Assembly: GCA_964572485.1 (NCBI GenBank)
Contig: CAZNGA010000001.1
Coordinates: forward strand, 30,565-94,564
Length of the DNA stretch: 64,000 bases
Origin: an uncultured Chitinophagales bacterium
GTDB taxonomy: Bacteria; Bacteroidota; Bacteroidia; Chitinophagales; CAZNGA01
Direction: 5' to 3'
A model generated the notes under the pieces. It worked only from the letters and a program-made list of their open reading frames with translations, had not been told where the DNA came from and made no database searches. A program made the translations under genes and the position numbers. Positions 19,639 to 34,064 of this stretch are shown one piece after another. Position 1 is the stretch's first letter; every line of letters begins with the position of its first letter.

Positions 19639-20694
19639 GTGAAAAATCGATTTACCTTAACAGTCGTAAAGTGGTTCAAAGAAAAGGGAAGAGAGCTGCC
19701 TTGGAGAGGGTCGCTGAATCCCTATGTTATATGGATCTCGGAGATCATTCTTCAGCAAACAAGAGTTAAATATGGGCTATCTTATTTTAACAGAATTATT
19801 GAGGAGTATCCTACGATACAACATTTGGCTTCCACTGATGAGGACAAATTCCTTAAAATATGGCAAGGATTAGGATACTATTCAAGAGCCAGACATTTAC
19901 TCGAATCTGCAAGTTATATTGTGAATGAACTGAATGGTGAATTTCCAACAGAGTATAGTTCCATATTAAACCTTAAGGGGGTTGGGCCATATACAGCAGC
20001 CGCTATAGCTTCCACTGCATTTGCCGAACCGGTGGCTGTATTGGATGGTAATGTTTTCCGTTTGCTGTCAAGATATTTTTATATCGACAAGCCAATCGAT
20101 AATGTGGCTGGGCAAAAGATATTCAAGAAATTGGCCAATGAGCTCATTGCAATAAAGAACCCGGGAGAGTACAACCAAGCCATAATGGACTTTGGCGCGC
20201 TTATTTGCAAGGTCGTAAACCCTAAATGTGATACATGCCCATTAGAAAAACACTGTTTAGCAAAGAAAAAAAATAGGATTTCCCAATTGCCGGTAAGATC
20301 CAAGAGGATCAAAATAAGAGATAGATATTTTAATTTCTTGGTAATAAAGGGTAAAAAGGGGTATTATATAACTAAAAGAAAAGAAAAAGATATTTGGAGG
20401 GGACTTTATCAATTTCCCATGATAGAAACCAGTGAATTAGTTAATGAGGAAGAATTGATCAACTCTGAATCCTGGGGACAAATTTTCACTTCTATTGGTT
20501 ATCGTGTTAAAAAAGATCCATTAAAATTGGAACAAAAGCTGACGCACCAAAAGATCAATGGTTCTTTTTGGGAAGTAGAAATCACAGATGAGCAGAATGT
20601 TCTAAAAGGCGATGATCTAATAGAAGCCAATTGGGAAAAGATAAAGAGGCTGGCAGTGCCTAAAATAGTGGATTGTTATTTACTGAAAATTTGA
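19639..20694 (+). CDS. mutY: A/G-specific adenine DNA glycosylase
   Basis: HhH-GPD region LKGVGPYTAAAIAS, Fe-S cluster loop CKVVNPKCDTCPLEKHC, and a C-terminal NUDIX-like domain. GTG start in the track. Confidence 0.9.
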   Translation: MKNRFTLTVVKWFKEKGRELPWRGSLNPYVIWISEIILQQTRVKYGLSYFNRIIEEYPTIQHLASTDEDKFLKIWQGLGYYSRARHLLESASYIVNELNGEFPTEYSSILNLKGVGPYTAAAIASTAFAEPVAVLDGNVFRLLSRYFYIDKPIDNVAGQKIFKKLANELIAIKNPGEYNQAIMDFGALICKVVNPKCDTCPLEKHCLAKKKNRISQLPVRSKRIKIRDRYFNFLVIKGKKGYYITKRKEKDIWRGLYQFPMIETSELVNEEELINSESWGQIFTSIGYRVKKDPLKLEQKLTHQKINGSFWEVEITDEQNVLKGDDLIEANWEKIKRLAVPKIVDCYLLKI

Positions 20695-20736
20695 TTATAT
20701 TTGATTTTTATCTGTTAACAAGATTTTTGTAACAAA

Positions 20737-21186
20737 ATGAGAGGAATTAATAAAGTAATTTTAATCGGGCATCTTGGAAAGGATCCCGAAGTTAGATATT
20801 TGGAAGGCGGTTCAGTCGTTGCAAATATTAGAATGGCTACATCGGAATCTTACACTAATAAAAGTGGTGAAAGGGTCGACCAAACGGAATGGCATAGCGT
20901 TGTCTTTTGGAGAAAATTAGCGGAAATTGCCGAAAAATATCTTAGAAAAGGCAGTTTGATCTATGTTGAAGGAAAACTTCAAACAAGATCATGGGAAGAC
21001 AAAGAAGGCAATAAGAGGTATACTACCGAAATTGTTGGAGATAGTATGACCATGCTTGACAAGAAGGGGGATGTGTCGGATAGCAATATACCGATGGCTA
21101 CCGAAAATGAACCCAATGAACCTGTAAAAAAGGAAAGTACAGATGAGGTTGCTGATAGCAAACCTACTGACGACTTACCCTTTTAA
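20737..21186 (+). CDS. ssb: Single-stranded DNA-binding protein
   Basis: [31 protein letters not shown], and the acidic tail ending DDLPF. Confidence 0.95.
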
Positions 21187-21216
21187 GAAGGATTGAAGTA
21201 ATAAGAAGTTATTGTT

Positions 21217-22569
21217 TTGGAAATTAGTTCTGACGACGATTATTATTCGTGGTTAATTTTAGCAGACGCTGCTAATGAGCCACATGCATATCATATAATT
21301 CTTGCCATATTAGCGATCCTGGTATTATTATTTCTATCAGCAATGGTTTCAGGATCTGAAGTCGCATTTTTTTCTCTCTCAAGAAAAGAAATTGATAATA
21401 TCAAAGAGAAGACTGATAAGATGTCTTCATTGATCATACAATTACTCGAATCACCCAAGAAACTGCTGGCAACTATTCTTATTGCCAATAATCTATTCAA
21501 TGTAGGGGTGGTTGTGATCTCTTACTTCGTGATCATGAGTTTTATCGATGCTAATGCATACCCTTTCCTGGGATTTATACTTGAGATAATTGTTGTGACC
21601 CTAATGTTGGTCCTATTTGGTGAAGTGATCCCTAAAACATTTGCCAATTATAACAATAGAAAAATTGCCTATTTAACCGCCTTTCCCCTTACTATCCTTG
21701 AAAAGATATTTAACCCACTGAGCAAATTACTTGTATCATCCACGAATATTATTGAAAACAGAATCAAAAGAGATACCAACAGAAATATAAGTGCTGAAGA
21801 TGTTAACGATGCCATTGATCTTTCTGTGGGTACGCAGGCCTCAAAGCAGGAGATAAATATTCTAAAAGGGATCGTAAAATTTGGAGATATTTCGGTGAAG
21901 CAAATTATGCGTGCAAGAGTTGATGTGATTGCCATAGAGCATGAAACAAGCTTTAAGGAGACATTGAATATTGTTAGAGAATCCGGGTTTTCACGAATTC
22001 CTGTATTTCAGGAAAATGAAGATTCGATCAAAGGAATACTTTATGTTAAAGACCTGCTAAAATATGTTAGCGAAAAGGAGGATTTCAAATGGCAGAGCCT
22101 GATCAGGACCCCATTTTTTGTTCCTGAAACGAAAAAAATTGACGACCTGTTGAGAGAGTTTCAAACAAAAAGAATTCACTTGGCCATTGTAGTTGATGAA
22201 TACGGTGGCACTTCAGGAATTGTCACTTTAGAAGATGTTATGGAAGAGATTATAGGCGAGATCACTGATGAATTTGATGAAGCAGAAGAGATCAAATTTG
22301 ATAAAATTGATGATAATAATTATATTTTTGAAGGTAAGACCCTTTTGAATGACATTTATAAAGTGGTGGGTATCAAAAGTGACTCTTTCGATGAAGTTAG
22401 TGGAGATTTTGATTCACTTGCAGGATTGATATTGGAGCTTTCAGGTAAAATTCCCAAGAAGAATGAGAGAGTTTCTTATAAGGACTTTTTATTTACAGTA
22501 TTAGCAGTAAGCAGAAAACGGATTGTTCGAGTTAAATTAACCTATGTGCAAGATGATGAAAGCGCATGA
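21217..22569 (+). CDS. gldE: CNNM/CorC-HlyC family membrane protein, GldE-type
   Basis: DUF21 TM domain, a CBS pair, and a CorC_HlyC C-terminus. It lies between ssb and a GldD-like lipoprotein gene, the arrangement described for Flavobacterium johnsoniae gldE-gldD. TTG start in the track. Confidence 0.78.
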   Translation: MEISSDDDYYSWLILADAANEPHAYHIILAILAILVLLFLSAMVSGSEVAFFSLSRKEIDNIKEKTDKMSSLIIQLLESPKKLLATILIANNLFNVGVVVISYFVIMSFIDANAYPFLGFILEIIVVTLMLVLFGEVIPKTFANYNNRKIAYLTAFPLTILEKIFNPLSKLLVSSTNIIENRIKRDTNRNISAEDVNDAIDLSVGTQASKQEINILKGIVKFGDISVKQIMRARVDVIAIEHETSFKETLNIVRESGFSRIPVFQENEDSIKGILYVKDLLKYVSEKEDFKWQSLIRTPFFVPETKKIDDLLREFQTKRIHLAIVVDEYGGTSGIVTLEDVMEEIIGEITDEFDEAEEIKFDKIDDNNYIFEGKTLLNDIYKVVGIKSDSFDEVSGDFDSLAGLILELSGKIPKKNERVSYKDFLFTVLAVSRKRIVRVKLTYVQDDESA

Positions 22570-22576
22570 AAAGACC

Positions 22577-23203
22577 ATGATGATTAGCGATAAGGCACTG
22601 CTCTTTGTTTTATTTCTTTGCCTGTTGGGATGTACCGGAAACCATACCCCAAAGCCCAGAGGATACTTTAAGATCGATCTGCCAGAGAAAAAATATCAAA
22701 TGTTCTCGTCTCCAACATGCCCTTTTGATTTTGAATATCCTCAATATGCTAAAATAGTTTACGACAGCTCATTTTTTGATTCATTGCCTGAACACAGGTG
22801 CTGGTTCAATATAGAATTTGGTGATATGAATGGAAAGATCCATTTTAGTTATAAGGAGATCAATGAGCAAACCACGCTTCCAATGCTGATTGAAGATTCT
22901 TATCGCCTTACCAGTAAGCACATCGTTAAAGCAGAATCCATTGAAGAGAATGTGATTCGCACACCACAAAAAGTATATGGCCTGATGTATGAAGTTGGGG
23001 GAGATGCGGCTTCTGCTATTCAGTATTACCTCACCGATAGCACCCATCATTTTATCAGAGGGTCATTATATTTCTATTGCTCACCAAACATTGATTCCAT
23101 GAAACCGGTTATTGAATTTGTCAAAGTGGATATTTTACATATGATAAGCACCTTCAGATGGGATTCAAACTACGTTCTCAATGACGGAAACCTCGACAAA
23201 TAA
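22577..23203 (+). CDS. gldD: Gliding-motility lipoprotein GldD-like
   Basis: Start chosen at MMISDK, just after the gldE stop. Lipobox LLGC followed by PKPRGYFKIDLPEKKY. The size and the position immediately after gldE fit GldD. Confidence 0.65.
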   Translation: MMISDKALLFVLFLCLLGCTGNHTPKPRGYFKIDLPEKKYQMFSSPTCPFDFEYPQYAKIVYDSSFFDSLPEHRCWFNIEFGDMNGKIHFSYKEINEQTTLPMLIEDSYRLTSKHIVKAESIEENVIRTPQKVYGLMYEVGGDAASAIQYYLTDSTHHFIRGSLYFYCSPNIDSMKPVIEFVKVDILHMISTFRWDSNYVLNDGNLDK

Positions 23204-25298
23204 CCTGGATACTCCCATTGAATATCTAAAGGGAGTGGGCCCCCAAAGGGCTGATATTTTAAAAAAAGACCTCTCTATTTTTACAATTGGCGATCTATTA
23301 CAACATTACCCTTTTAGGTATGTGGACAAGACCAAAATTTATTCGATCAGCGAGATCACACCTGCCACCCAATTTATTCAACTCAAAGGTGTAGTCACCA
23401 ATATTCAAACCAAAGGAAAAAGGTATAAGAAAATATTGACCGCCCTCCTTAAGGATGATACGGGAACCGTGGAACTGATATGGTTTAAAGGTGTAAACTG
23501 GTTACTGAAGTATATTCAGCCCAATTCAACATATATCGTATATGGCAAACCCGGCTACTTCAAGAATAAGTTCAACATCCCTCATCCTGAGTTAGAAATT
23601 GCTGCGATGCAACATAAAAACAAGCCCCTTGGACTTCAGCCGGTGTATGGAACTACAGAGAAACTTAAAAGTAAATACCTTGACAGCAGGGGGATAAAGA
23701 ACTTAATGAAAGCAGTATTTACAATGATAAGCCCCGGTAAAATAAAGGAGAATCTCCCAAAGGCGATTCTTACCGGACGGGGTCTTGTTGATAGATATCA
23801 GGCAATGCTTCATATCCATTTTCCGGTAGATGAGCAGGTCATGGAAAGAGCAATTAGAAGATTGAAATTTGAAGAACTGTTTCTGATCCAGGTGAGATTG
23901 CTTAAATCCAAGAGTAATAGAAATGAAAATATTAAGGGCTATGTTTTTCCTGAACTTGGCGACCATTTCAATACGTTTTACAAAAAGAAACTCAATTTTG
24001 AATTAACAGGAGCGCAAAAGAGAGTAATAAAAGAGATCAGGCAAGATGTTCTGTCTGGAAAGCAAATGAATCGGTTGTTGGAAGGAGATGTGGGAAGTGG
24101 AAAAACAGTTGTTGCACTATTCTGTATGCTAATGGCGATTGACAATAATTTTCAAGCATGCATTATGGCCCCTACCGAAATATTGGCCCAACAACACTAC
24201 CAATCCATATCAGCGATGGTGAATGATATTGGTTTGAATACAGGACTATTAACGGGCTCAGTAAAGAGCAAAGAACGGAAAGAGTTACTGAAGAAACTGG
24301 TAAATGGAGAGATACACATATTGATCGGGACCCATGCACTAATCGAGGATTGGGTGAAATTCGATAACCTAGGGATGGTGATCATTGATGAGCAACACCG
24401 TTTTGGTGTCGCACAGCGGGCAAAATTATGGTCAAAAAGTAAGCAGTTGCCCCATGTTTTGGTGATGACAGCTACCCCCATACCAAGAACCCTTGCCATG
24501 ACATTATATGGAGATCTTGATATTTCTGTAATTGATGAAATGCCCCCAGGCAGGAAGCCAATCATAACGGTACACCGAAAAGACGAAAATAGGTTGAGGG
24601 TATTTGGTTTTATGCGGGAGCACATAGGTAAAGGAAATCAGGTCTATGTGGTATATCCCCTGATAGAGGAATCAGAGACAATGGACTATAAAGACCTGAT
24701 GGATGGATACGAATCTGTGGTACGAGAATTCCCATTGCCAGAGTATAAGGTCTCGATACTCCATGGAAAAATGAAACCTGAAGATAAAGAATATGAAATG
24801 GGAAGATTCGTGAAGGGCGAGACCAATATAATGGTTGCCACCAATGTAATTGAAGTAGGTGTTGATGTCCCATCAGTTACCGTGATGGTGATAGAGAGTG
24901 CTGAGAGATTTGGACTTTCACAACTCCACCAGCTAAGGGGCAGGGTAGGGAGAGGTCCTGATCAGGCATACTGTATATTGATGACAGGAGATAAACTCTC
25001 CAATGATGCAAGGTTAAGAATTAAGACAATGACCAGCACTACAAATGGATTTGAGATCGCTGATGCTGACTTACGGCTAAGAGGCCCGGGAGAGTTGGAA
25101 GGGACCATTCAGAGCGGCATTACTAATCTGAAGCTGGTTAATCTTGGTGAGGATGGCAAAATACTTCAGGAGGCCAGAGAAGAAGCCATGACATTGATCG
25201 ATGAGGACCCCAAATTAGCAAAGCAGGAAAATTTGGCCTTGAAGAAATATTTTGACAATAAGTATAAAGGCAAGATAACCTGGGGAAGGGTATCATGA
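23181..25298 (+). CDS. recG: ATP-dependent DNA helicase RecG
   Basis: Wedge/OB N-terminal domain and helicase motifs GDVGSGKT, DEQHRFG, TATPIPRT and QLRGRVGRG. Confidence 0.95.
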   Translation: MTETSTNNLDTPIEYLKGVGPQRADILKKDLSIFTIGDLLQHYPFRYVDKTKIYSISEITPATQFIQLKGVVTNIQTKGKRYKKILTALLKDDTGTVELIWFKGVNWLLKYIQPNSTYIVYGKPGYFKNKFNIPHPELEIAAMQHKNKPLGLQPVYGTTEKLKSKYLDSRGIKNLMKAVFTMISPGKIKENLPKAILTGRGLVDRYQAMLHIHFPVDEQVMERAIRRLKFEELFLIQVRLLKSKSNRNENIKGYVFPELGDHFNTFYKKKLNFELTGAQKRVIKEIRQDVLSGKQMNRLLEGDVGSGKTVVALFCMLMAIDNNFQACIMAPTEILAQQHYQSISAMVNDIGLNTGLLTGSVKSKERKELLKKLVNGEIHILIGTHALIEDWVKFDNLGMVIIDEQHRFGVAQRAKLWSKSKQLPHVLVMTATPIPRTLAMTLYGDLDISVIDEMPPGRKPIITVHRKDENRLRVFGFMREHIGKGNQVYVVYPLIEESETMDYKDLMDGYESVVREFPLPEYKVSILHGKMKPEDKEYEMGRFVKGETNIMVATNVIEVGVDVPSVTVMVIESAERFGLSQLHQLRGRVGRGPDQAYCILMTGDKLSNDARLRIKTMTSTTNGFEIADADLRLRGPGELEGTIQSGITNLKLVNLGEDGKILQEAREEAMTLIDEDPKLAKQENLALKKYFDNKYKGKITWGRVS

Positions 25299-25340
25299 AG
25301 AGAAGAAAACAAAACTATCTTTGTAATTAAACAAATAAGA

Positions 25341-26231
25341 TCATTGAATTGCAAACTTCCCGATACCGACAACCTCATTTCCTTTTCGTGCCATATAATA
25401 ATACATTCCAACAGGAAGTTTATCTCTATATAGAGTAGATTGATTTGAGGAAATCAGAAGATTTTTCACTTCAATACCTAAAGTATTGTAAATAGAAAGG
25501 TAAACATCACCATAAGACCACAATTGCTCAAAATTTGTGGTTATTGTTGTTGCGTGTGAAAAAGGATTTGGCCTTAAGAAGATGTATTGATTGTTTGGTT
25601 GAATAACATTTTCTAGATTACTAATGATATAATCAGTATCGCATGCGCCATTAATTGTTGAGTCAAAGACAAAATGCCCAATCAAGCTGTCTTCATAGCA
25701 CCTGATAGGCCCGGGTGTAGGATCGGCTGCACCAGGCCAAGGAATTAGATCGTAGTACCAACCAATATTTTCGATTATCGGCCCATCAAACCAAAAAAGC
25801 CAATCATCAGGATCAAGGTGACTGATATATTGAATTTTAAATAGTTTACTATTTACAGTCCATGTAGCAATTGAATCCACTATGACAACAAATGAATCTT
25901 GCGGGCTATCAGGTGGATGAACTGTCCAGGTTTCGTTCACATCAGACAAAAAATCATATAACAGGTAAAAAGTTGTATCGTAATCATTAAAATAGAATAC
26001 TTTACCGGAATCTTTATACATAATATAGAGGTCGTTGATATTCCGACAACTCTTTCCTTGAATAAGAGTATCTCCCTTTGATTCATAAGTTAAGTAGCTA
26101 ACGTCAATCCATGGAGATGGCCAACTGGCATAAGTATAATACCAGATTGCTCCTGTAGGAGCCCAAGTAGAATCCTGGCCGTATGTGTTACAGCAGTTTA
26201 AGAATAATAAAATAATAAAAAACTTTTTCAA
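25341..26231 (-). CDS. Secreted protein of unknown function with T9SS C-terminal sorting domain
   Basis: Signal peptide MKKFFIILLFLNCCNTYGQ. The last ~75 aa (LRPNPFSHATTITTN...LSIYNTLGIEVKNLL...LPVGMYYYMARKGNEVVGIGKFAIQ) match the type-A Por/T9SS CTD pattern. Confidence 0.7.
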   Translation of the reverse strand: MKKFFIILLFLNCCNTYGQDSTWAPTGAIWYYTYASWPSPWIDVSYLTYESKGDTLIQGKSCRNINDLYIMYKDSGKVFYFNDYDTTFYLLYDFLSDVNETWTVHPPDSPQDSFVVIVDSIATWTVNSKLFKIQYISHLDPDDWLFWFDGPIIENIGWYYDLIPWPGAADPTPGPIRCYEDSLIGHFVFDSTINGACDTDYIISNLENVIQPNNQYIFLRPNPFSHATTITTNFEQLWSYGDVYLSIYNTLGIEVKNLLISSNQSTLYRDKLPVGMYYYMARKGNEVVGIGKFAIQ

Positions 26232-26310
26232 AGCAATGAATTACTATGTTAAAATTAGAATCTATTTTCATATAAACCAAAAATAAATAGGTTGGTGTTG
26301 GGAGAGAGAG

Positions 26311-27384
26311 TTATTTTTTATATTTATTCCTGATCTCTTTTGGGAAGAGTTCCATTTGTTGTTTCTTAAGTTTTTTCTGAGGCCGCTTTTGTCGTTTCTT
26401 GATATTCCTCATCCTCTTCTTTTGGGGGCGCTTGTTAAATTTTGGAGCATTCTTTGCCTTAGTGTTCTGCTTGAACCTCTTCTTAGCTTGCCTGTAAGTA
26501 TATTTCGGCGGATTTGCCGGCCTGACCGCTTTCCGATACCTTTTTGCTGCCTTATTTTGAGTATACTTAGGGGCATTCTTCGGCTTGATGGCCAACCGAT
26601 GCCTCTTGGCAGCTTTCCTATAATTATCTCTCGGAGGGTTGATGGGGCGAATCGCTAATTTATGTCTTTTCACTGCCCTCCTTTGTGCATACTTCCAAGG
26701 GTTATTGGGTTTTTTGGCTATGCGGGATCTTTTGGCTGCATTTCTTTGTGTATATCTTGGCGGGTTCTTTGGTTTCCTTACCTGCTTGTATCTTTTGGCC
26801 GCCCTTCTTTGTGTATACCTGGGTGGATTCTTTGCTTTTCTAACCTGCCGGTACCTTTTTGCAGCCTTGTTTTGTGTATACCTGGGAGGGTTTTTAGCCC
26901 TCTTGGCTTTCGGCCTCTTGTTGCTTGCCTTGCCGTAACTATCCTTTGGAAGTCCTGAGTTTCTGGAAACGTGTCGCTGCCTTTTAGCTGATTTTCTGTA
27001 AGAATGTCGCGGTGCATTTTTCGGTTTGGAGACCTTCCTATGTCTTTTTTGAGCCTTTCTGTAATTATTCTTTGGTGAATTATTGGGCCGCCTGGCTTTA
27101 TAGCTTCTTTTGTGAGACTTTCTATAGCTGTCTCTTGGCGTATTCTTTGGCCTGGATGATTGCCTGTATCTCTTTGACGCCTGACGAGTTGTATTACGAG
27201 GAGGATTCGATGGCCTTACCGCTTTTTTATATCTTTTCCTTGCTTTCTTGCTAAGGGAGCGTTGCTTCTTTTGCTTGGCAGCAGAGTATTTTCTGGATTG
27301 CGCGGAAATTGACTCCGGCACACTAATACTCTGAATAGAGAATATTGTGATCACGAGAATCGATAATGTATATATCTTTTTCAC
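26311..27384 (-). CDS. Hyper-basic tandem-repeat protein with N-terminal signal or anchor peptide, function unknown
   Basis: A continuous 371-codon frame. I prefer the GTG start at 27384, which gives MKKIYTLSILVITIFSIQSISVPESISAQS. This is followed by 13 units of about 21 aa (consensus KRYRxxxKPKNPPRYTQxKAA) and a K/R-rich tail. A TAtaTTTG motif (-7-like) lies on the minus strand at 27434-27441. Confidence 0.72.
   Translation of the reverse strand: MKKIYTLSILVITIFSIQSISVPESISAQSRKYSAAKQKKQRSLSKKARKRYKKAVRPSNPPRNTTRQASKRYRQSSRPKNTPRDSYRKSHKRSYKARRPNNSPKNNYRKAQKRHRKVSKPKNAPRHSYRKSAKRQRHVSRNSGLPKDSYGKASNKRPKAKRAKNPPRYTQNKAAKRYRQVRKAKNPPRYTQRRAAKRYKQVRKPKNPPRYTQRNAAKRSRIAKKPNNPWKYAQRRAVKRHKLAIRPINPPRDNYRKAAKRHRLAIKPKNAPKYTQNKAAKRYRKAVRPANPPKYTYRQAKKRFKQNTKAKNAPKFNKRPQKKRMRNIKKRQKRPQKKLKKQQMELFPKEIRNKYKK
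26416..27237. repeat. 13 diverged in-frame tandem repeats of about 63 bp inside the basic-protein gene
   Basis: The periodicity is visible in the translation: 11 units of 21 aa, one of 22 and one of 20. The repeats also create stop-free mirror ORFs on the + strand (26356-26958). Confidence 0.85.
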
Positions 27385-27814
27385 TTTTATGTGCGAAATA
27401 TTATCCTGCTGAAAAAATAACTCCAACCCACTTCAAATATATGATAAAGGAAGTTAGCATGTTGCGTTGAATTAAAGTTGAAAAAATTGACAAATTAATG
27501 GATGATCACCGTAAATTCGATACAAAAATGGGCTCTTTTCGGAATTTTGTAAAGGGTCTGTATTGTAGGCAGAAAAGCAGTTTCACCGATAATCATGAAA
27601 TATTTATTGATTTATTTATCAACATTTATTCAAAGGCCATATTTAATAGAATATATATAATGAAGAAAATCAAGTATATATACGAGAGAAATAAACATAA
27701 TGCTTCTGCTTCTCTTAAATATCAACATTTTTATGGAAAATAATTTGGAATTTACTTTCAAACCGTTTACCTTTAAATGATTGAAACATTTCTTAACCTT
27801 TAAATTAATTTATC

Positions 27815-28084
27815 ATGAATAAAGGAGATTTAATCAACAAGATTGCTGGCGATGCTGGAGTTAGTAAAGCACAAGCCGGTAGAGCACTCGATTCATTCCT
27901 AGGTACAACAATGGGTGCTGTAGGTAAAGGTGATAAAGTTACATTAGTTGGCTTTGGCACATTTTCAAAAGCTCGCAGAGCTGCTCGTACTGGAAGAAAT
28001 CCTCAAACTGGTGCTAGTATTAGTATTCCTGCGAAGAATGTTGTTAAATTTAAAGCCGGAAAAGATTTTTCTAAGAAGGTTTAA
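27815..28084 (+). CDS. HU-family nucleoid protein
   Basis: MNKGDLINKIAGDAGVSKAQA...GFGTFSKARRAARTGRNPQTGASISIPAKNVVKFKAGK is the canonical HU sequence. Confidence 0.92.
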   Translation: MNKGDLINKIAGDAGVSKAQAGRALDSFLGTTMGAVGKGDKVTLVGFGTFSKARRAARTGRNPQTGASISIPAKNVVKFKAGKDFSKKV

Positions 28085-28110
28085 GTTAGAACATTAGAAA
28101 AAATAAAGAA

Positions 28111-28140
28111 AGCAAGGTTGTAAAACCTTGCTTTTTTTTT
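28111..28140 (+). terminator. Rho-independent terminator after the HU gene
   Basis: AGCAAGGTT-gtaa-AACCTTGCT stem-loop followed by a run of about nine T. Confidence 0.78.
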
Positions 28141-28273
28141 AATTGGCACACCACCATTAATCAATTAATGTACAACATATTGCTTTAGAGGTTGTCGTAA
28201 AATTGTTATTTTTGCTCTTCTTAAAGGAATTGAATTTGAAGTACATTGATAAAGAGTATTAGATTTTAGAAAT

Positions 28274-28405
28274 ATGGGAAAAGGAGATAGAAAATCAAAG
28301 CGCGGTAAGATCTGGAGAGGGTCATTCGGTAATTCCCGGAAACATAAGCCTTTTGCAAAGGTCGCTGCAAAGAAGAAAGCTACTAAGGTTTCAAAGAGCA
28401 AGTAG
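28274..28405 (+). CDS. 30S ribosomal protein bTHX-like
   Basis: Hand-translated 43-aa ORF: MGKGDRKSKRGKIWRGSFGNSRKHKPFAKVAAKKKATKVSKSK. The GKGDRKSxRGKIWRGS start is the THX signature. The 78-aa antisense track ORF (28165..28401) is rejected in its favour. Confidence 0.8.
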   Translation: MGKGDRKSKRGKIWRGSFGNSRKHKPFAKVAAKKKATKVSKSK

Positions 28406-28421
28406 TACTACCGGAAGTCTG

Positions 28422-29693
28422 TTACCCACCATTTTGCCTATCAAGTTTTTTGTAAGTATCCAGGAGATCCTTCAACGTGGAAATAGTATCGGTCTGGACA
28501 GATAGGTTTTCCAAAAGAGAGCCTGCCGCCTTATCCACATCGATTAAAGGGTAAAAGTTGTCCCTGCAATAATGGGTATATTTTAGTACTTTAAACCCAT
28601 TGAACCACCTGTAGAACCGCTTGATAAAACTATCCAGGGAGCTACAATTCATATTGATTTCAGCAATTGCACTATTTATATCCTGATCAAGAAGGAAGGA
28701 AGACAAAGAATTTGGCAACTCATTTAGGATGTTTGCGATAGCCTTTACATCAATAACATTGAATAGTTGGGGAATGATATGGGATAGACCATTAAGGTCT
28801 TCAAATGTATTAGGGTGATATACCTGCAGCATCTTGCTTGACTCCATAAGATCTGAAACAGCCTTACCTGTTCCAAAAGGAACCCTGTCAGATGTCCTGC
28901 CTGATGGAAAGACGGTAGTATTATTAATTTCAGTGAAATTTCCCAGCGGAATGATCTTCTGTAAAAAATAGAAATCCTCACCTGCTTTTCTTTTGTTCAT
29001 GCCTCCCTGCTGTTGATAGGTACTGCTTCGTACAGCCATGCAGGAACCAATTGTGTGATAAGCATGGGGATGCTTTGCGTAGCGAAGGCCCTGAACATAG
29101 TACCTTAAATAGAGTTCATATTGTGCAATGTATTCGTACAATTGAGGCGTAAAATTTCCATTTAATGGATGCTCAAAATTAATACTGCAAGCCGTGGCCT
29201 TGGGATGATCTTTAAAATGGCTGTTGATAGTTTTTAGATAATTTTCTTCACATGTACAATCTGCATCGAGACAAACAATAACTCCCGAGCCGGGTGTTGC
29301 CCTTTCAAATCGGCTTACCGCTTCATCCATCCCAATTTTTCTTGCTAAACCTACCCCTGCATGTTTAATAGGCAAGTCTGGAAAATCAAGAACGTAGTAT
29401 TTTAATCTTTCATCATTATGATCATTGATCCATTGCTCCGTGGCTTTACGGGTTTTATCATTTTGGATCACCACCTCTTTCTCATCCTTTGCACCATTGA
29501 AAATAATAACCACCTCAACTGATCCCTCAGGACGCTGACAATCCCATAACGATTGTAATGTGGGTATTATAGATGGCTCATTATAGCATGGGATCACAAT
29601 AATTGTATGGAGATCAGCAGTTGGAGTTTCGTTGATTTGAGGAGGATAAAATTGGTGCTTATTGAGATAGGGATTATTGATTGACTTGTTCAT
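28422..29693 (-). CDS. Family-2 glycosyltransferase
   Basis: IIVIPCYNEPSIIPTL N-terminal GT-A motif, DxD-like LDADC, and a C-terminal extension of unknown function. Confidence 0.78.
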   Translation of the reverse strand: MNKSINNPYLNKHQFYPPQINETPTADLHTIIVIPCYNEPSIIPTLQSLWDCQRPEGSVEVVIIFNGAKDEKEVVIQNDKTRKATEQWINDHNDERLKYYVLDFPDLPIKHAGVGLARKIGMDEAVSRFERATPGSGVIVCLDADCTCEENYLKTINSHFKDHPKATACSINFEHPLNGNFTPQLYEYIAQYELYLRYYVQGLRYAKHPHAYHTIGSCMAVRSSTYQQQGGMNKRKAGEDFYFLQKIIPLGNFTEINNTTVFPSGRTSDRVPFGTGKAVSDLMESSKMLQVYHPNTFEDLNGLSHIIPQLFNVIDVKAIANILNELPNSLSSFLLDQDINSAIAEINMNCSSLDSFIKRFYRWFNGFKVLKYTHYCRDNFYPLIDVDKAAGSLLENLSVQTDTISTLKDLLDTYKKLDRQNGG

Positions 29694-29710
29694 TATGATT
29701 CAGAAAGAGG

Positions 29711-30361
29711 TTAAGGTGACAGTCGGGAGAGACCCCAGCCGTTATCTTCAAGAACGTATTGTAACCTGTCGTGCAAGCGGTTAGGGCGGGATTGCCAGAA
29801 TTCGACCCGATAAGGAATTACAAGATAGCCACCCCAATAATGTGGCTTTTCAATTTTTTTATCCTGATATTCATTAGCAAGCTCTATGGCTTTATTGTCA
29901 AGAATTGATCTGTTCTCGAGAAAAGCACTCTGATTAGAAGCCAATGCGCCTATCTTGCTATCTTCGGGCCGGCTATCAAAATATTCTGTGGAGATATCCT
30001 CGTCAACTTTTTCAATGTTGCCCTCGATTACTATTTGTCTGCCAAGTTCAGGCCAGAAAAAATTTAATGCGGCTAAAGGATTTTCGGCCAGCTCCCGGCC
30101 TTTTCGACTTTCATAATTTGTGTAGAAAGTAATTCCTCGACTGCTATAATCCTTGATGAGTACAGTTCTGCATGAAGGAGCACCTGCTTTTGTTGCAGTA
30201 GCCAAAGCCATTACGTTAATATCACTTACTTCAGCCTTTAGAGCTTCTTCAAACCAAATACCAAATTGATCGATCGGATCCGTCGCCATTTTACTCTTTA
30301 ATAATTCAGCGCTGGCATACTCTTTGCGAAGATTGTTGAGGAGTTCTTTTGTTGAAACCAC
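29711..30361 (-). CDS. pdxH: Pyridoxamine 5'-phosphate oxidase
   Basis: RTVLIKDYSSRGITFYTNYESRKGRELAENP and WQSRPNRLHDRLQY, classic PdxH motifs. GTG start in the track. Confidence 0.92.
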   Translation of the reverse strand: MVSTKELLNNLRKEYASAELLKSKMATDPIDQFGIWFEEALKAEVSDINVMALATATKAGAPSCRTVLIKDYSSRGITFYTNYESRKGRELAENPLAALNFFWPELGRQIVIEGNIEKVDEDISTEYFDSRPEDSKIGALASNQSAFLENRSILDNKAIELANEYQDKKIEKPHYWGGYLVIPYRVEFWQSRPNRLHDRLQYVLEDNGWGLSRLSP

Positions 30362-30486
30362 AAGAATTTATTTATTTGAGAACAAAAATAATGATTAACT
30401 CAATATAAATTGTCAAATACTTTTAAATTTATAGGGTAAATAAAATGTATAGCTTTTAGCTTGAAAGGAAAATATATTAATCAACG

Positions 30487-31062
30487 ATGTTTCAAAATTT
30501 AAAAATAGGATTTGGCGAGCCGGAAAAGGGAAAGCTTTTGATCTCTGAGCCATTTATGTTCGATCCAAATTTTAAACGAACGGTTATTTTGCTTACCGAA
30601 AATAATGACGAAGGTACCGTAGGATTTATATTGAATAAGCAAACCGATTTGACCATCTCGGATATAATCGAGGAATTCCCACTATTTGACGCACCGGTAT
30701 ATTTTGGGGGACCTGTTCAGCCGGAAACCCTTCATTATGTTCATACAAAGGGAGACCTATTTGAAGATAGTGTGGAGATCGTAGAAGGAGTTTACTGGGG
30801 AGGGAATTTCGAATTATTGAAATCGAATATTGAAAGTGGGATGATAAGTTCATCCGACTTACGTTTTTTTATTGGCTATTCCGGGTGGGCTCCAGACCAA
30901 TTAGAGGCAGAGATAAAAGAGAAATCATGGATCCTGACACCAGCAGATGAGGAGAGTATTTTTTCAATAGATTCAGAGAGTTTATGGAAACAGGTCCTTA
31001 AAGAAATGGGTAAAGAATATGAGATCATTTCAAATTTTCCGGAGAATCCCAATCTCAATTAA
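30487..31062 (+). CDS. YqgE/AlgH-family protein (UPF0301)
   Basis: LLISEPFMFDPNFKRTVILLTENNDEGTVGFILNK and GYSGWAPDQLEAEI. Confidence 0.85.
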   Translation: MFQNLKIGFGEPEKGKLLISEPFMFDPNFKRTVILLTENNDEGTVGFILNKQTDLTISDIIEEFPLFDAPVYFGGPVQPETLHYVHTKGDLFEDSVEIVEGVYWGGNFELLKSNIESGMISSSDLRFFIGYSGWAPDQLEAEIKEKSWILTPADEESIFSIDSESLWKQVLKEMGKEYEIISNFPENPNLN

Positions 31063-31099
31063 TATTAGCTAAGAGCAGCTTAGTGTATCAGCATTTATT

Positions 31100-33628
31100 A
31101 TGAAGCATCAATTATATACCATTGAGAAGCTAGCCGAAATTGCCGGAGGAGAGTTAAAGGGAGCGAAAAATGTAAAACCTTTTGAGTATATAACCTTCGA
31201 TAGCAGAAAAATACCATTTCCTGAGAAGTCCATTTTTTTTGCATTTAAAAGTGAACGAAGGAATGGGCATGATTTTGTTGAGGAGCTATACGATAAAGGT
31301 CTCAGAAATTTTGTAGTTGAAAAGGAATTCAATATTTCTAAATATCCCAAAGGTGCTTTTTTGTTAGTGTCAAATACCATCGCTGCTTTACATTTGCTGG
31401 CGATCTCACATCGTAAGCAATTCCAAATTCCGATAATTGCCATAACGGGCAGCAATGGAAAGACCATTATTAAAGAATGGCTCTACCAGCTCCTTGAATC
31501 GGATTATAATATTGTAAGGAATCCAAAGAGTTTTAATTCTCAAATAGGGGTGCCTCTTTCCATCTGGCACATGGATAAAGAAAATACAATGGGAATTTTT
31601 GAAGCGGGGATATCTCAGCAAGGAGAGATGGAAAAATTGAAGAAGATGATCGAACCTAAGATCGGTCTTTTTACCAATATTGGACATGCGCACGATGAAG
31701 GATTTTTGAATATACGCCAAAAGGTCAATGAGAAGCTCAACTTGTTTACAAATACAGATGTGGTCATTTATTGCAAAGACCACCATGAGATATCCGAGAA
31801 TGTTACGGCAATGCGTGCACGCACAATGGATATGGAAGTAAAAAATGGGAATGGAGCAAAAGTTTTTACTTGGTCAAAGAGCTCAGAAGCAGATCTATTC
31901 ATTAAAAGCATTGAGAATGACCAACAAAACGCTCATATTGAAGGTGAATATAAGGGCCATATTATTGATATTACCATCCCTTTTAACGATGAAGCATCGA
32001 TTGAGAATGCCATTCATTGTTGGGCGATAATGCTCTATCTCGGAATTGATAACAAGATCATAAAAAATAGGATGACAGACCTGGCAAAGGTTGCCATGCG
32101 TCTTGAATTGAAAAAGGGGGTCAACAGTTGTTCTTTGATCAATGACAGCTATAATTCTGACATTGAATCTTTGAAAATTGCCCTCGATTTCCTAAACCAC
32201 CAAAAACAGCACATAAAAAAAACAGTCATTTTATCAGATATATTGCAAAGTGGCAAGCCCGAAATAGATCTTTACAATGAGGTAGCAGGCCTTGTTAATA
32301 AAAATGGGGTCAACAGGCTGGTTGGTATCGGAAGGGCTATATCAAAACAAAATTCTTGCTTTTCCTCAATAGATCATTTGGAGAAAAGTTTTTTCCAAAG
32401 TACAGAGGAATTTCTCAACAATATGTCACCTGACTCTTTCAAAGATGAGACCATATTATTAAAGGGTGCACGGACTTTCATGTTTGAAAAGATCAGCAAC
32501 CTTCTTGAAGAAAAGAGGCACGAGACTCTATTAGAGATCAATTTGAATGCACTTGAGCATAATCTCAATTGCTACAGGTCCTTACTAAAGCCGGAGACGA
32601 AAATTGCTGTGATGGTGAAAGCATTCTCTTACGGTAGTGGTAGTTTTGAGATCGCCAACCTTCTAAGTTTTCTGGGTGTTGATTTCTTAGCTGTTGCTTT
32701 TGTAGATGAGGGGGTAGAGTTGAGAAAAGCAGGAATAAGTTTACCAATAATTGTAATGAATCCTGAGCAAAAAAGCTTTGGAAGTATGATCTCTTATAAC
32801 CTGGAGCCTGAAGTTTATAGTATGAATCTCCTTCGTCAATTTGAAGTGGCTTTAAAGGAATATGGAGGAAGTGCCCCATTACCCTTTCCAATACATATTA
32901 AATTGGATACCGGAATGCATAGACTTGGATTTGTTCAAAGTGACCTTGAAGAACTTTCCAGGACCTTAAAAGATAACCCTGTAGTTAGTGTGAATTCAGT
33001 ATTTTCTCATCTTGCCGGTAGTGACGATAGTAAGCATGATAATTATACAAAACAACAGATCAGTAACTTTAAAAAAATGACAAAGAAGCTCCAGGGAGGA
33101 TCAAAGGAACCTATTTTAATGCATATTCTAAATTCGGCAGGTATTGTAAGGTTTCCTGATGCAGAATTTGACATGGTTAGATTAGGTTTGGGTTTATATG
33201 GTGTGGATACTTCAAATACGATACAAAAAGATCTTAGAAATGTAAGCACTCTTAAAACATCGGTAGCCCAAATAAAGGAGGTTGCGAAAGGAGAGTCTAT
33301 TGGCTATGATCGAAGCTTCATTGCTACTAAGAAGATGAAAGTGGCCATCGTTCGTTTGGGTTATGCAGATGGTTTAAATAGGAAATTAGGAAATGGCAAT
33401 GGTAGCTTGCTGGTGAAAGGCGTTTCAGCAAAGATCGTAGGCAATATCTGTATGGATATGACCATAATAGATGTGTCTAAGATCAAGGATATCAAAGAGG
33501 GGGATGAGGTCATCGTCTTTGGCGAAGAACAGCCCATTCAAAAAGTCGCAGAACTTTTGCAAACCATTCCTTATGAAGTGATGACTGGTATTTCAAAAAG
33601 AGTTAAAAGAATTTATTTTCAGGAATAG
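31100..33628 (+). CDS. murF/alr: Bifunctional MurF (UDP-MurNAc-tripeptide:D-Ala-D-Ala ligase) / alanine racemase fusion
   Basis: The N-terminal ~470 aa carry the Mur ligase P-loop ITGSNGKT. The C-terminal ~370 aa carry the PLP-lysine motif AVMVKAFSYGSG and the alanine racemase C-terminal barrel (YEVMTGISKRVKRIY). Confidence 0.9.
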   Translation: MKHQLYTIEKLAEIAGGELKGAKNVKPFEYITFDSRKIPFPEKSIFFAFKSERRNGHDFVEELYDKGLRNFVVEKEFNISKYPKGAFLLVSNTIAALHLLAISHRKQFQIPIIAITGSNGKTIIKEWLYQLLESDYNIVRNPKSFNSQIGVPLSIWHMDKENTMGIFEAGISQQGEMEKLKKMIEPKIGLFTNIGHAHDEGFLNIRQKVNEKLNLFTNTDVVIYCKDHHEISENVTAMRARTMDMEVKNGNGAKVFTWSKSSEADLFIKSIENDQQNAHIEGEYKGHIIDITIPFNDEASIENAIHCWAIMLYLGIDNKIIKNRMTDLAKVAMRLELKKGVNSCSLINDSYNSDIESLKIALDFLNHQKQHIKKTVILSDILQSGKPEIDLYNEVAGLVNKNGVNRLVGIGRAISKQNSCFSSIDHLEKSFFQSTEEFLNNMSPDSFKDETILLKGARTFMFEKISNLLEEKRHETLLEINLNALEHNLNCYRSLLKPETKIAVMVKAFSYGSGSFEIANLLSFLGVDFLAVAFVDEGVELRKAGISLPIIVMNPEQKSFGSMISYNLEPEVYSMNLLRQFEVALKEYGGSAPLPFPIHIKLDTGMHRLGFVQSDLEELSRTLKDNPVVSVNSVFSHLAGSDDSKHDNYTKQQISNFKKMTKKLQGGSKEPILMHILNSAGIVRFPDAEFDMVRLGLGLYGVDTSNTIQKDLRNVSTLKTSVAQIKEVAKGESIGYDRSFIATKKMKVAIVRLGYADGLNRKLGNGNGSLLVKGVSAKIVGNICMDMTIIDVSKIKDIKEGDEVIVFGEEQPIQKVAELLQTIPYEVMTGISKRVKRIYFQE

Positions 33629-33632
33629 AGGT

Positions 33633-34064
33633 TTATTTTTTAACAAAACCCCATTGCCAGGCACCTCTGGTCTTTCCTTCAATACTACTAAGGTAAAGTT
33701 CACTTTTGTTTACTTTAATGATCAGCCATTTTGGTTGAACATCTGCGTTGATGGTAAAAGGAAGGTAATTATCAGTGTATAGATGATGTTTTGTGATCTT
33801 ATTTTGAATTTTCCATTCAATATATTCGCGATCACCGGCGTGATCTTTTTTGTCATCTGTTAAGACCCCATAGGTATACTCTCTGATCCGGAGGGTGTTA
33901 TCTTCATCGAAGGTCCACTCTTCCACAACACCATAAGCCTGAGGACTTTTTATCCACGTTCCAATGATCTGTTTTTCAACGGGTTGGAAAAAATAAGTAT
34001 GGCATCCTGATAAGAATATCAAGATGAAGATCATGCAATACCATATTATCCATCGTCGACCCAT
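33633..34064 (-). CDS. Small lipoprotein of unknown function
   Basis: Lipobox FLSGC after a hydrophobic N-terminus. I recognise no motif, and the start is uncertain. Confidence 0.5.
   Translation of the reverse strand: MGRRWIIWYCMIFILIFLSGCHTYFFQPVEKQIIGTWIKSPQAYGVVEEWTFDEDNTLRIREYTYGVLTDDKKDHAGDREYIEWKIQNKITKHHLYTDNYLPFTINADVQPKWLIIKVNKSELYLSSIEGKTRGAWQWGFVKK

What the first reader, a model, noticed from the sequence alone, without database searches (positions are those of the whole stretch)
26311..27384. Membrane-targeted polycationic protein built from 13 tandem 21-aa KR / NPPRY repeats
After a classical signal or anchor peptide (MKKIYTLSILVITIFSIQSISVPESISAQS), the protein is an uninterrupted array of 13 units with consensus KRYRxxxKPKNPPRYTQxKAA. 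Examples are KRYRQVRKAKNPPRYTQRRAA, KRYKQVRKPKNPPRYTQRNAA and KRHRLAIKPKNAPKYTQNKAA. The array ends in a K/R/Q tail (KKRMRNIKKRQKRPQKKLKKQQ).

By eye, well over a third of the residues are Lys or Arg and acidic residues are nearly absent. The units are diverged at both the amino-acid and DNA level. This argues for an old, selected array rather than recent slippage.

I know of no characterised family with this repeat. It is reminiscent in principle of histone-H1-like, Hc2 or AlgP-type polycations, but those are not exported or anchored.

The location is ambiguous. A cleaved signal peptide would place a polycation in the periplasm or at the surface, where it could bind LPS, capsule or eDNA. The positive-inside rule instead argues for an N-out/C-in anchor, which would tether a nucleic-acid- or polyphosphate-binding array to the inner face of the membrane.
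Basis: partly seen in the sequence, partly recalled or inferred. Interest (0 to 1): 0.75.

Follow-up and report, generated by a model that had tools for sequence, protein, structure and literature searches.

The report
Orphan signal-peptide polycationic 21-residue repeat protein
A gliding marine Bacteroidota bacterium carries an apparently genuine gene, with no detectable relatives, for a protein that starts with an export-type signal and then consists of 13 copies of a strongly positively charged 21-residue unit; its function is untested.

Summary
On the minus strand, 26311..27384 (GTG start) encodes 357 aa: 73 K, 57 R, only 6 D/E, no Cys, net charge about +124. After a hydrophobic N-terminus come 13 units of exactly 21 aa without indels, a degenerate 14th unit and a short tail.

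The frame looks selected. Third codon positions differ most between units, pN/pS is 0.45 in frame against 1.1 out of frame, and invariant Pro and Asn use all their synonymous codons. A Bacteroidetes-type -7 box lies 57 nt upstream.

No relative was found in any family library, the PDB, two billion-scale protein collections, or metagenome, viral, plasmid and phage DNA. The protein's own copies are missing from these collections. Two distant lineages with gldD-recG-hup synteny lack the gene.

A low-confidence single-sequence AlphaFold2 model gives about 14-residue cationic helices joined by RKPKNPP linkers, without packing.

Best guess (0.4): a Sec/SPase I-exported multivalent binder of envelope or matrix polyanions. 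The ISA|Q site fits the Bacteroidetes Q-rule, but the +7 early mature region argues against export. The N-out/C-in anchor remains a serious rival. Function is untested. Interest is moderate.

The parts
26311..27384 (-). Complete CDS: GTG start at 27384, stop codon at 26311-26313, 357 aa polycationic repeat protein.
   Evidence: The JGI gene caller chose the same GTG start on the near-identical contig L081.
27301..27384 (-). Residues 1-28, MKKIYTLSILVITIFSIQSISVPESISA: an n-region (KK), a 14-19-residue hydrophobic segment and a polar c-region ending I-S-A before Q29. Either a candidate Sec/SPase I signal peptide or an N-terminal anchor.
   Evidence: Five other signal-like N-termini in the window end [A/G/S]|Q, matching the Bacteroidetes Q-rule (PMC5837995).
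27238..27300 (-). Residues 29-49, QSRKYSAAKQKKQRSLSKKAR: a basic lead-in that may be a degenerate unit, predicted helical.
26419..27237 (-). Array of 13 units of 63 nt / 21 aa (residues 50-322), consensus KRyRqvrKpKNpPRYtqrKAA, with no indels.
   Evidence: Periodicity. Codon-level selection. Column conservation. Coordinates.
26356..26418 (-). Degenerate 14th unit (residues 323-343), KRMRNIKKRQKRPQKKLKKQQ, part of a long predicted basic helix.
26314..26355 (-). C-terminal tail MELFPKEIRNKYKK (residues 344-357). It holds two of the six acidic residues and is the only hydrophobic cluster outside the N-terminus.
27434..27441 (-). TATATTTG, a match to the Bacteroidetes -7 promoter consensus TAnnTTTG, starting 57 nt upstream of the GTG.
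   Evidence: the motif occurs at 0.55 per kb per strand in the window, so the chance of one in a 60-nt upstream window is about 3%. The consensus itself is from my own knowledge of Bacteroides/Flavobacterium promoters.
25341..26231 (-). Downstream same-strand orphan gene (296 aa, acidic, pI 4.4) with a signal peptide ending YG|Q and a T9SS C-terminal sorting domain. It has its own TATTTTTG box at 26278-26285. Together with the repeat gene it forms a lineage-specific two-gene insert between recG and hup.
   Evidence: Synteny.

Best explanation
This is a genuine, lineage-restricted (orphan) protein-coding gene of a T9SS/gliding Bacteroidota bacterium.

Proposed mechanism:
1. The product is targeted to the Sec translocon by its N-terminal signal peptide.
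2. Signal peptidase I cleaves it after Ala28 (ISA|QS), exposing Gln as in most exported proteins of this phylum.
3. The mature protein of about 39 kDa is a flexible string of 13 short cationic, weakly amphipathic helices (R14 of one unit through residue 6 of the next). They are joined by Pro-containing linkers (RKPKNPP, with Asn-Pro-Pro acting as a helix cap), and there is no hydrophobic core.
4. It acts by multivalent electrostatic binding. Each unit contributes about +8 charges and one or two Tyr residues. The array coats, condenses or cross-links a polyanion in the envelope or extracellular matrix, such as extracellular nucleic acid, anionic or sulfated polysaccharide, LPS or anionic lipid. 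It would behave as an 'electrostatic glue'.

Shown: the architecture, the selection on the frame, and the absence of detectable homologues. Weakly modelled only: the helix-linker secondary structure, which comes from a low-confidence single-sequence prediction.
Inferred: export, cleavage, the ligand class and the glue role.
For: Real gene:
- The 371-codon open frame exceeds the maximum of 266 seen in 2000 shuffles.
- Third-position differences between units are 0.65, against 0.42 and 0.36 at positions 1 and 2. pN/pS is 0.45 in frame and 1.1 out of frame.
- Conserved Pro13 uses CCT/CCA/CCG/CCC and Asn11 uses AAT/AAC. K and R exchange freely at columns 4, 8, 14 and 19.
- Codon usage is close to that of the window's long genes.
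- A TAnnTTTG box lies at -57.
- The same ORF, with the same GTG start call, is present in an independent metagenome assembly of the same strain.

Export:
- The N-terminus has an MKK n-region, a 14-residue core h-region, and small residues at -1/-3 (I-S-A).
- Q is at +1, as in 5 other signal-like N-termini of this window and as described for Bacteroidetes SPI substrates (PMC5837995).
- The stretch 18-30 is the only part of the protein free of K/R, and it contains E24.

Helix-linker string: AlphaFold2 (single sequence, so low confidence overall) gives helices of about 14 residues separated by linkers of about 7 residues. pTM is 0.17, so no packing is predicted.

Amphipathicity: the hydrophobic moment of the helix segments is 0.43, against 0.29 for shuffled order.

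Polyanion-binding character:
- Net charge is +124.
- XBBXBX (Cardin-Weintraub-type) motifs occur 12 times, against 4.3 +/- 1.9 expected.
- Positively charged exported proteins do act as eDNA binders in biofilm matrix in another organism (PMC6593408).
Against: - If cleavage is after A28, the first 18 mature residues carry +7. The five other Q-rule signal peptides in the window are followed by segments with net charge of 0 or below (read from the sequences). In E. coli, basic residues early in the mature part and long cationic stretches impair Sec export, and the membrane potential opposes outward movement of positive charge (my knowledge; not tested here).
- The protein has no T9SS C-terminal domain and no lipobox, since it contains no Cys. 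There is therefore no known route beyond the periplasm.
- There are no expression data.
- No relatives exist to show conservation.
- No ligand evidence exists. The XBBXBX count is simply a consequence of the conserved A-K-R-x-[RK]-x.
- The structural model is low confidence (mean pLDDT 66).
Confidence: 0.4

Rival explanations
1. N-terminal signal-anchor with N-out/C-in topology. The hydrophobic segment (I4-V22, up to 19 residues) stays in the inner membrane. The whole polycationic array remains in the cytoplasm and tethers nucleoid DNA, RNA or ribosomes, or polyphosphate to the membrane, acting as a membrane-bound H1/protamine-like protein.
For: - The charge imbalance is overwhelming: +2 before the hydrophobic segment, +8 in the 30 residues after it, and +124 in total.
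- The +7 early 'mature' region is atypical for exported proteins of this same genome.
- The units look like arginine-rich nucleic-acid-binding helices (sequence; resemblance from memory only).
- The gene is divergently adjacent to hup (HU) and thx, which are genes for basic nucleic-acid-binding proteins.
Against: - The Lys-Lys n-region would have to be translocated.
- The hydrophobic core is short and rich in Ser/Thr/Gln, which is typical of signal peptides.
- An ISA|Q site matches the Q-rule.
- Within 15 residues on either side, the charge balance (+2 versus +1) favours N-in.
- The adjacency to hup is not ancestral. Lineages with gldD-recG-hup synteny have a spacer of only about 550 nt with no such gene.
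Confidence: 0.25
2. Exported polyprotein precursor. The 13 units are released as separate cationic peptides of about 21 residues by cleavage at the invariant Lys-Arg pair. The peptides would act as antimicrobial or outer-membrane-permeabilising peptides, or as mineral (silica or iron oxide)-templating peptides. This is analogous to apidaecin-type or silaffin-type precursors.
For: - The K1-R2 dibasic pair is the best-conserved feature (12/13 units) and sits at a fixed 21-residue spacing.
- Each unit is a cationic, weakly amphipathic helix of net +5 to +7.
- A signal peptide is present.
- The same strain occurs in a hydrothermal red-mat reference metagenome (IMG 3300002231).
Against: - The KR pair lies in the middle of the predicted helix, not in the linker.
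- Hydrophobic content is far below that of typical membrane-active peptides (mean Eisenberg H of -0.6 to -1.0).
- No dedicated protease, immunity gene or transporter lies next to it.
- No bacterial precedent is known to me.
- Dibasic pairs are expected anyway in a sequence that is 39% K/R.
Confidence: 0.08
3. Taxonomically restricted ORF with no current function, or not translated. On this view it is a relic or 'proto-gene' created by amplification of a 63-nt unit inside the recG-hup spacer.
For: - There is no homologue anywhere.
- The gene sits in a lineage-specific insert.
- The start codon is GTG, and there are no expression data.
- The exact protein is absent from the protein collection although its neighbours HU and GT2 are present.
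Against: - Frame-specific purifying selection among highly diverged units (pS 0.83, pN/pS 0.45) requires long-term translation in this frame.
- Strict conservation of unit length over 13 units, with no stop codon or frameshift, in 38% G+C DNA.
- A promoter-like box is present.
- The absence from the collection is not informative. The fragments that JGI did call on L081 are absent too, so this protein's own copies are evidently missing from that collection for some other reason.
Confidence: 0.12

Closest known systems
AlgP (Pseudomonas) and other bacterial histone-H1-like polycations with short tandem repeats (chlamydial Hc1/Hc2, Lys-rich tails of HupS/Hlp)
   Same: Very high K/R content, almost no acidic residues, tandem repetition, presumed electrostatic binding of a polyanion, and no globular core.
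   Different: Those proteins are cytoplasmic and lack an N-terminal hydrophobic signal. Their repeats are 4-9-residue Ala/Lys/Pro units (KPAA, AKKA), not a 21-residue helix-linker unit with KR...KNPPRY. No sequence match was found at E <= 1 to any Pfam or NCBIfam model.
Arginine-rich-motif (ARM) RNA-binding helices (lambda/P22 N, HIV Rev/Tat)
   Same: Short helices of 14-17 residues rich in Arg/Lys with Gln, Ala, Thr and Tyr. Local strings such as KRHRLAI resemble RRRKLAIER of P22 N (comparison from memory).
   Different: ARMs are single motifs in cytoplasmic or viral regulators, not 13-fold arrays behind a signal peptide. The resemblance is compositional and was not tested.
Positively charged secreted proteins and lipoproteins that bind eDNA in biofilm matrix (S. 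aureus, PMC6593408); the cationic Pel polysaccharide as a functional analogue
   Same: The proposed mode of action is the same: an exported cationic polymer cross-linking anionic matrix polymers electrostatically.
   Different: Those proteins are folded, only moderately basic and unrelated in sequence. The organism and envelope type differ, and binding is untested here.
Secreted polyprotein precursors of cationic peptides (diatom silaffins, insect apidaecins)
   Same: A signal peptide followed by tandem cationic units of about 20 residues, each starting with a dibasic pair.
   Different: These are eukaryotic and processed by Kex2-like proteases. Silaffins are Ser/Lys-rich and heavily modified. 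There is no evidence of processing here, and the KR pair lies inside the predicted helix.
TonB/TolA-type periplasm-spanning charged repeat regions
   Same: An N-terminal membrane segment followed by an extended, charged, Pro-containing, low-complexity repeat region in a Gram-negative envelope protein.
   Different: TonB and TolA have mixed-charge repeats ((EP)n/(KP)n or K/A/E) and a folded C-terminal domain. No TonB_C or TolA domain is present here. A normal TonB is encoded elsewhere in the window (36015..36803).

Membership tests
Sec/SPase I signal peptide (Bacteroidetes type) | Basic n-region, hydrophobic h-region of about 7-15 residues, and small residues at -3/-1. | tested here: met
   The sequence shows MKK, then IYTLSILVITIFSI, then ...I-S-A (residues 26-28), read directly. 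No SignalP or DeepTMHMM run was available.
Sec/SPase I signal peptide (Bacteroidetes type) | Gln at +1 of the mature protein (Q-rule). | tested here: met
   The site is ISA|QS. Five other signal-like N-termini in the window also end [A/G/S]|Q. The rule is described in PMC5837995.
Sec/SPase I signal peptide (Bacteroidetes type) | Neutral or acidic early mature region. | tested here: not met
   The first 18 residues after A28 (QSRKYSAAKQKKQRSLSK) carry net +7. The other five candidates in the window carry 0 or less (sequences).
T9SS cargo | C-terminal sorting domain (PF18962 / TIGR04183). | tested here: not met
   No hit at E <= 1, whereas the adjacent gene hits both models. The C-terminus is a basic helix plus MELFPKEIRNKYKK.
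Bacterial lipoprotein | Lipobox with an invariant Cys. | tested here: not met
   The protein contains no Cys at all.
AlgP / H1-like / Hc1 / Hc2 polycations | Family-specific repeat (KPAA-type pentamers or Hc motifs) or a linker-histone domain. | tested here: not met
   No Pfam or NCBIfam match at E <= 1. The unit is 21 aa, KRyRqvrKpKNpPRYtqrKAA.
AlgP / H1-like / Hc1 / Hc2 polycations | Cytoplasmic, with no N-terminal hydrophobic signal. | tested here: not met
   A hydrophobic N-terminus is present.
TonB / TolA | Folded C-terminal domain (TonB_C / TolA_C) after the charged spacer. | tested here: not met
   No such domain is present.
Cationic-peptide polyprotein precursor | Proteolytic release of the units at dibasic sites. 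| not testable with these tools
   The KR pair is conserved in 12/13 units but lies inside the predicted helix. No protease lies nearby.
Heparin/GAG-binding (Cardin-Weintraub) motif proteins | XBBXBX or XBBBXXBX motifs. | tested here: inconclusive
   XBBXBX occurs 12 times against 4.3 +/- 1.9 in shuffles, and XBBBXXBX 0 times. The motif carries little information in a sequence that is 39% K/R.

The most novel reading that the evidence does not exclude
The protein is a naturally Sec-exported polycation of net charge about +124. It would then be a natural substrate that breaks the 'neutral early mature region' and positive-inside expectations. Once outside, it would serve as a protein 'electrostatic glue' for extracellular nucleic acid or anionic polymers in a hydrothermal microbial mat. 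This would be a new, homologue-less class of bacterial matrix or envelope protein built from ARM-like helices.
Probability: 0.25. Interest if true: 0.7.

Novelty: new variant of a known kind. Interest (0 to 1): 0.4.

Why it matters
If the protein is made and exported, it would be an extreme natural test case for how the Sec machinery moves long cationic chains against the membrane potential. It would also be a protein counterpart to cationic exopolysaccharides that organise eDNA-rich matrices.

If it instead stays inside, it would be a membrane-tethered protamine-like nucleoid, RNA or polyP binder, which is not described in Bacteroidota.

Either way it illustrates how a strictly periodic, selected repeat protein can arise as a lineage-specific gene in a conserved housekeeping spacer (recG-hup).

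At present it is a single-lineage orphan without expression or binding data, so its significance is potential rather than demonstrated.

Tried and rejected
Homologue searches, all negative:
- Pfam, NCBIfam, PHROGs and PADLOC at E <= 1.
- PDB sequences.
- Word-index search of 5.8 billion clusters.
- Repeat-profile hmmsearch of 1.84 billion representatives.
- Degenerate-pattern DNA scans of viral and metagenome contigs.
- tblastn against plasmids and phages.
- A literature string search for NPPRY, KNPPR and NPPRYT.

Power controls:
- At the same database size, the profile detects synthetic copies with 50% random substitutions, and also a 3-unit protein. It does not detect composition-matched shuffles.
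- tblastn and phmmer readily detect the protein's own copies and cross-unit matches.

Caveat on the negatives: the protein collection lacks this protein and its L081 fragments, although the neighbouring proteins are present. The contig scans did not return the source genome or the L081 contig. The protein's own copies therefore appear to be missing from, or withheld from, these collections. I cannot fully exclude that biased-composition proteins are under-represented in general.

Synteny approach:
- 80 recG-anchored genome loci and 80 hup-anchored metagenome loci contain no homologue by tblastn and no comparable K/R-rich exported ORF.
- The closest lineage is only 60% identical in RecG, 75% in HU and 53% in GT2. 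'Frame conserved in relatives' therefore could not be tested.
- The only other copy (L081) is the same strain, at 99.9% identity. Its differences are single-A insertions and N characters that also break housekeeping genes, so they are assembly errors and not evidence of pseudogenisation.

Other attempts that led nowhere:
- A small lipoprotein ORF in the recG-hup spacer of L064 has a loosely similar string (KTKAPKTQ). It matches no family and I set it aside as probable chance.
- Plus-strand 'shadow' ORFs of about 100 aa over the array are rejected. They are antisense Phe/Leu/Ser-rich frames, the frame is broken, and pN/pS is about 1.1.
- Rfam found no RNA family in the window.
- The AlphaFold2 model of the neighbouring T9SS protein was unusable (pLDDT 37). 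I did not run a fold search with the repeat model because a pTM of 0.17 would give meaningless matches.
- The sigma-70-type promoter and terminator scan was uninformative.
Full report
**1. What is there**

The finding's coordinates delimit an ORF on the minus strand, 26311..27384. The N-terminal 'M' is a GTG codon. A TTG 14 codons upstream (27426) would extend the ORF to 371 aa.

The 357-aa product has 73 Lys, 57 Arg, 35 Ala, 33 Pro, 27 Asn, only 3 Asp and 3 Glu, and no Cys. Net charge is about +124, pI about 12 and mass 42.8 kDa. No other ORF of at least 150 aa in the window comes close: its net charge per residue is 0.33, and the next highest is 0.095.

From residue 50 the sequence falls into 13 units of exactly 21 residues with no indel. 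A degenerate 14th unit follows, then the tail MELFPKEIRNKYKK. Self-identity is 41.5%, 40.7% and 36.4% at lags 21, 42 and 63, against about 10% at other lags.

The unit profile is K1 (12/13), R2 (12/13), [KR]8 (13/13), P9 (9/13), N11 (12/13), P13 (12/13), [RK]14 (13/13), R18 (10/13) and A20 (10/13).

**2. Is it a real coding sequence?**

- Chance: shuffles of the same 1.1 kb give longest open frames averaging 107 codons, with a maximum of 266 in 2000 trials, against 371 observed.
- Divergence: the units average 52.5% DNA identity and 43.5% amino-acid identity. Only units 7 and 8 are close, and Tandem Repeats Finder recognises just 3.1 copies.
- Codon-position pattern: differences between units are 0.42, 0.36 and 0.65 at positions 1, 2 and 3.
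- Selection: Nei-Gojobori pS is 0.83 and pN is 0.38, a ratio of 0.45. The same calculation in the two shifted frames gives 1.11 and 1.13.
- Synonymous variation at conserved residues: Pro13 uses all four Pro codons, Asn11 uses both Asn codons, and basic columns switch freely between Lys and Arg codons.

This is the signature of long-standing purifying selection on this reading frame.

- Codon usage resembles that of the window's long genes, with somewhat higher GC3 (0.46 against 0.38).
- Promoter: a match to the Bacteroidetes -7 consensus (TAnnTTTG; consensus from my own knowledge) lies at 27441..27434, 57 nt upstream of the GTG. The motif occurs only 0.55 times per kb per strand in the window. 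Its position would put the transcription start at about the TTG of 27426, which favours the GTG as the start codon.
- The JGI gene caller chose the same GTG on an independent assembly.
- The roughly 100-aa ORFs on the plus strand are antisense shadows.
- Rfam finds nothing in the window.

**3. Genomic and phylogenetic context**

The window is chromosomal DNA of a gliding, T9SS-bearing Bacteroidota bacterium. Genes identified by family searches include:
- mutY, ssb, gldE and gldD, then recG.
- After the locus: hup (HU), thx (ribosomal protein bTHX), a GT2 glycosyltransferase, pdxH, an AlgH-like gene and a murF-alr fusion.
- Further on: a TPR protein, tonB, sprA (2410 aa) and ruvA.

The repeat gene and a downstream same-strand gene lie on the opposite strand inside the recG-hup spacer. 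The downstream gene (25341..26231) encodes an acidic protein with a T9SS sorting tail. It is also an orphan and has its own TAnnTTTG box at -54.

Downstream of hup, synteny (thx, GT2/pdxH, algH) is widely conserved. Two other lineages keep the gldD-recG-hup or recG-hup arrangement (L130, L064). Their recG-hup spacer is only about 550 nt and holds no comparable gene. In the window the spacer is 2.5 kb. The two orphan genes therefore look like a lineage-specific insertion.

The lineage itself is isolated. The best non-self matches are 60% identity for RecG, 75% for HU and 53% for GT2.

The only other copy is contig KVRMV2_100038022 of IMG metagenome 3300002231. A Santorini caldera study uses this dataset as its 'RED' hydrothermal reference sample (PMC13534618). 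The contig is 99.9% identical over 16.1 kb. Its differences are single-A insertions and N characters that also disrupt hup, murF-alr, gldE and recG, so they are assembly errors. It has the same number of units.

**4. Homology searches**

Every search was negative:
- Pfam, NCBIfam, PHROGs and PADLOC at E <= 1.
- PDB sequences.
- The word-index search of 5.8 billion clusters.
- An HMM of the repeat (alignment A1, 63 positions) against 1.84 billion representatives, with 0 hits at E <= 0.001.
- Degenerate-pattern scans of viral and metagenome contigs.
- tblastn against plasmid and phage records.
- 160 anchored loci from relatives.

A control shows the profile had power. At the same database size it detects synthetic copies with 50% of positions randomly replaced (E from 1e-19 to 1e-3) and a protein with only three units (E 4.5e-20). 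It does not detect composition-matched shuffles.

One caveat applies. Neither this protein (with any start codon) nor the two fragments called on L081 are in the protein collection, although the neighbouring HU and GT2 proteins are. phmmer and tblastn would detect them easily. The protein's own copies therefore seem to be missing from, or withheld from, the collections. I cannot fully exclude a general under-representation of such biased sequences.

**5. Structure and likely mechanism**

Single-sequence AlphaFold2 gives mean pLDDT 66 and pTM 0.17. The model shows a regular series of helices of about 14 residues, for example 189-202, 210-223, 252-265 and 273-286. These correspond to R14-Y-T-Q-R-K-A-A-K-R-Y-R-Q-V6'. 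They are separated by linkers of about 7 residues (R-K-P-K-N-P-P), and there is no tertiary packing. Asn-Pro-Pro at the helix start is a plausible N-cap (inference).

The helix segments are more amphipathic than their shuffled versions (mean hydrophobic moment 0.43 against 0.29). A thin Thr/Ala/Tyr/Val stripe faces a surface that is otherwise entirely cationic. Each unit has an A-K-R-x-[RK]-x string, which gives 12 XBBXBX motifs against 4.3 +/- 1.9 expected. This is low-information evidence.

The only mechanism such a molecule can plausibly have is multivalent electrostatic binding of a polyanion, with Tyr available for stacking on bases or sugars. Which polyanion depends on the compartment.

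**6. Where does it go?**

For export:
- A canonical MKK n-region.
- A short Ser/Thr-containing h-region.
- I-S-A at -3/-1.
- Gln at +1. This is the Bacteroidetes Q-rule (PMC5837995), and five other signal-like N-termini in this very window also follow it.
- A basic-free stretch (residues 18-30) containing Glu24.

Against export:
- The first 18 residues after the cleavage site carry +7, whereas the five comparators carry 0 or less.
- About 128 positive charges would have to cross against the membrane potential (established knowledge of Sec and the positive-inside rule, summarised in PMC9360617).
- There is no T9SS tail and no lipobox for onward sorting.

I rate export with cleavage as somewhat more likely (0.4) than an N-out/C-in anchor with a cytoplasmic array (0.25). 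A peptide-precursor role (0.08) and a non-functional ORF (0.12) are minor alternatives. SignalP and DeepTMHMM were not available, and reporter fusions would settle the question.

**7. Comparison with known systems**

The protein works like the bacterial H1-like polycations (AlgP, Hc1/Hc2, Lys-rich HU tails) and like ARM helices, but it is not a member of any of them:
- It has no model match.
- Its unit is different in length and pattern.
- It has an N-terminal hydrophobic signal.

It is also not a TonB or TolA (no C-terminal domain), not a T9SS cargo and not a lipoprotein. In function, the nearest described idea is that of positively charged exported proteins binding eDNA in biofilm matrix (PMC6593408).

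I file it as a new variant of a known kind: a tandem-repeat polycationic protein with a novel 21-residue unit and an export-type N-terminus.

**8. Verdict**

However, it is a single-lineage orphan with no expression, localisation or binding evidence. Interest is moderate (0.4). It would rise substantially if export of a +124 protein, or a membrane-tethered nucleoid-binding role, were demonstrated.

Noticed in passing
window 28274..28405 (+); L088 3276-3656, L128 6292-6639, L129 1882-2331, L140 6284-6682, L161 7016-7513: The gene after hup is ribosomal protein bTHX (43 aa here; Pfam Thx on L081). In several other Bacteroidota lineages, the ORF at the same position downstream of hup starts with the same N-terminal motif (MGKGD...) and carries a long Ala/Lys/Pro/Thr-rich, H1/AlgP-like C-terminal extension. 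L161 shows (TEAK)n-like repeats.
   Followed up: no
window 25341..26231 (-): An acidic (pI 4.4) 296-aa orphan with a Q-rule signal peptide and a T9SS sorting tail lies immediately downstream of the polycation gene. Its only database relatives are the same-strain fragment P0001 and a match limited to the sorting tail. The AlphaFold2 model was unusable (pLDDT 37). Whether the acidic and basic neighbours interact is unknown.
   Followed up: partly
L081 (JGI 3300002231 contig KVRMV2_100038022) against window 20133..36226: The contig is 99.9% identical to the window but has about 10 single-base (mostly A) insertions and several N characters. These split hup, murF-alr, gldE, recG and the repeat gene. 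The pattern indicates an error-prone assembly rather than real pseudogenes.
   Followed up: yes
window 31100..33628 (+): A single 842-aa ORF fuses a Mur ligase (MurF-like) domain to a complete alanine racemase.
   Followed up: no
window 37657..44889 (-): A 2410-aa SprA (the T9SS translocon), next to ruvA. With mutY-ssb-gldE-gldD upstream, it confirms a gliding, T9SS-bearing Bacteroidota chromosome.
   Followed up: partly
L130 5394..5765 (-): The recG-hup spacer of this relative contains a simple tandem DNA repeat that reads as (HHSLLIT)n in one frame. No gene equivalent to the window's insert is present.
   Followed up: no
L064 2386..2697 (-): In this relative the recG-hup spacer holds a small putative lipoprotein ORF (MKRFFFCAFLGLILLSTGC...QPQAKTKAPKTQSGLYGGKGGPR). 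It is in the same position and orientation as the window's repeat gene. Its KTKAPKTQ string loosely resembles KPKNAPKYTQ. It has no family match, and the resemblance is probably chance.
   Followed up: partly
window 27498..27743 (+): An 81-aa ORF in the AT-rich spacer between the repeat gene and hup was called as a gene on L081. It has no Pfam match and is probably spurious.
   Followed up: partly
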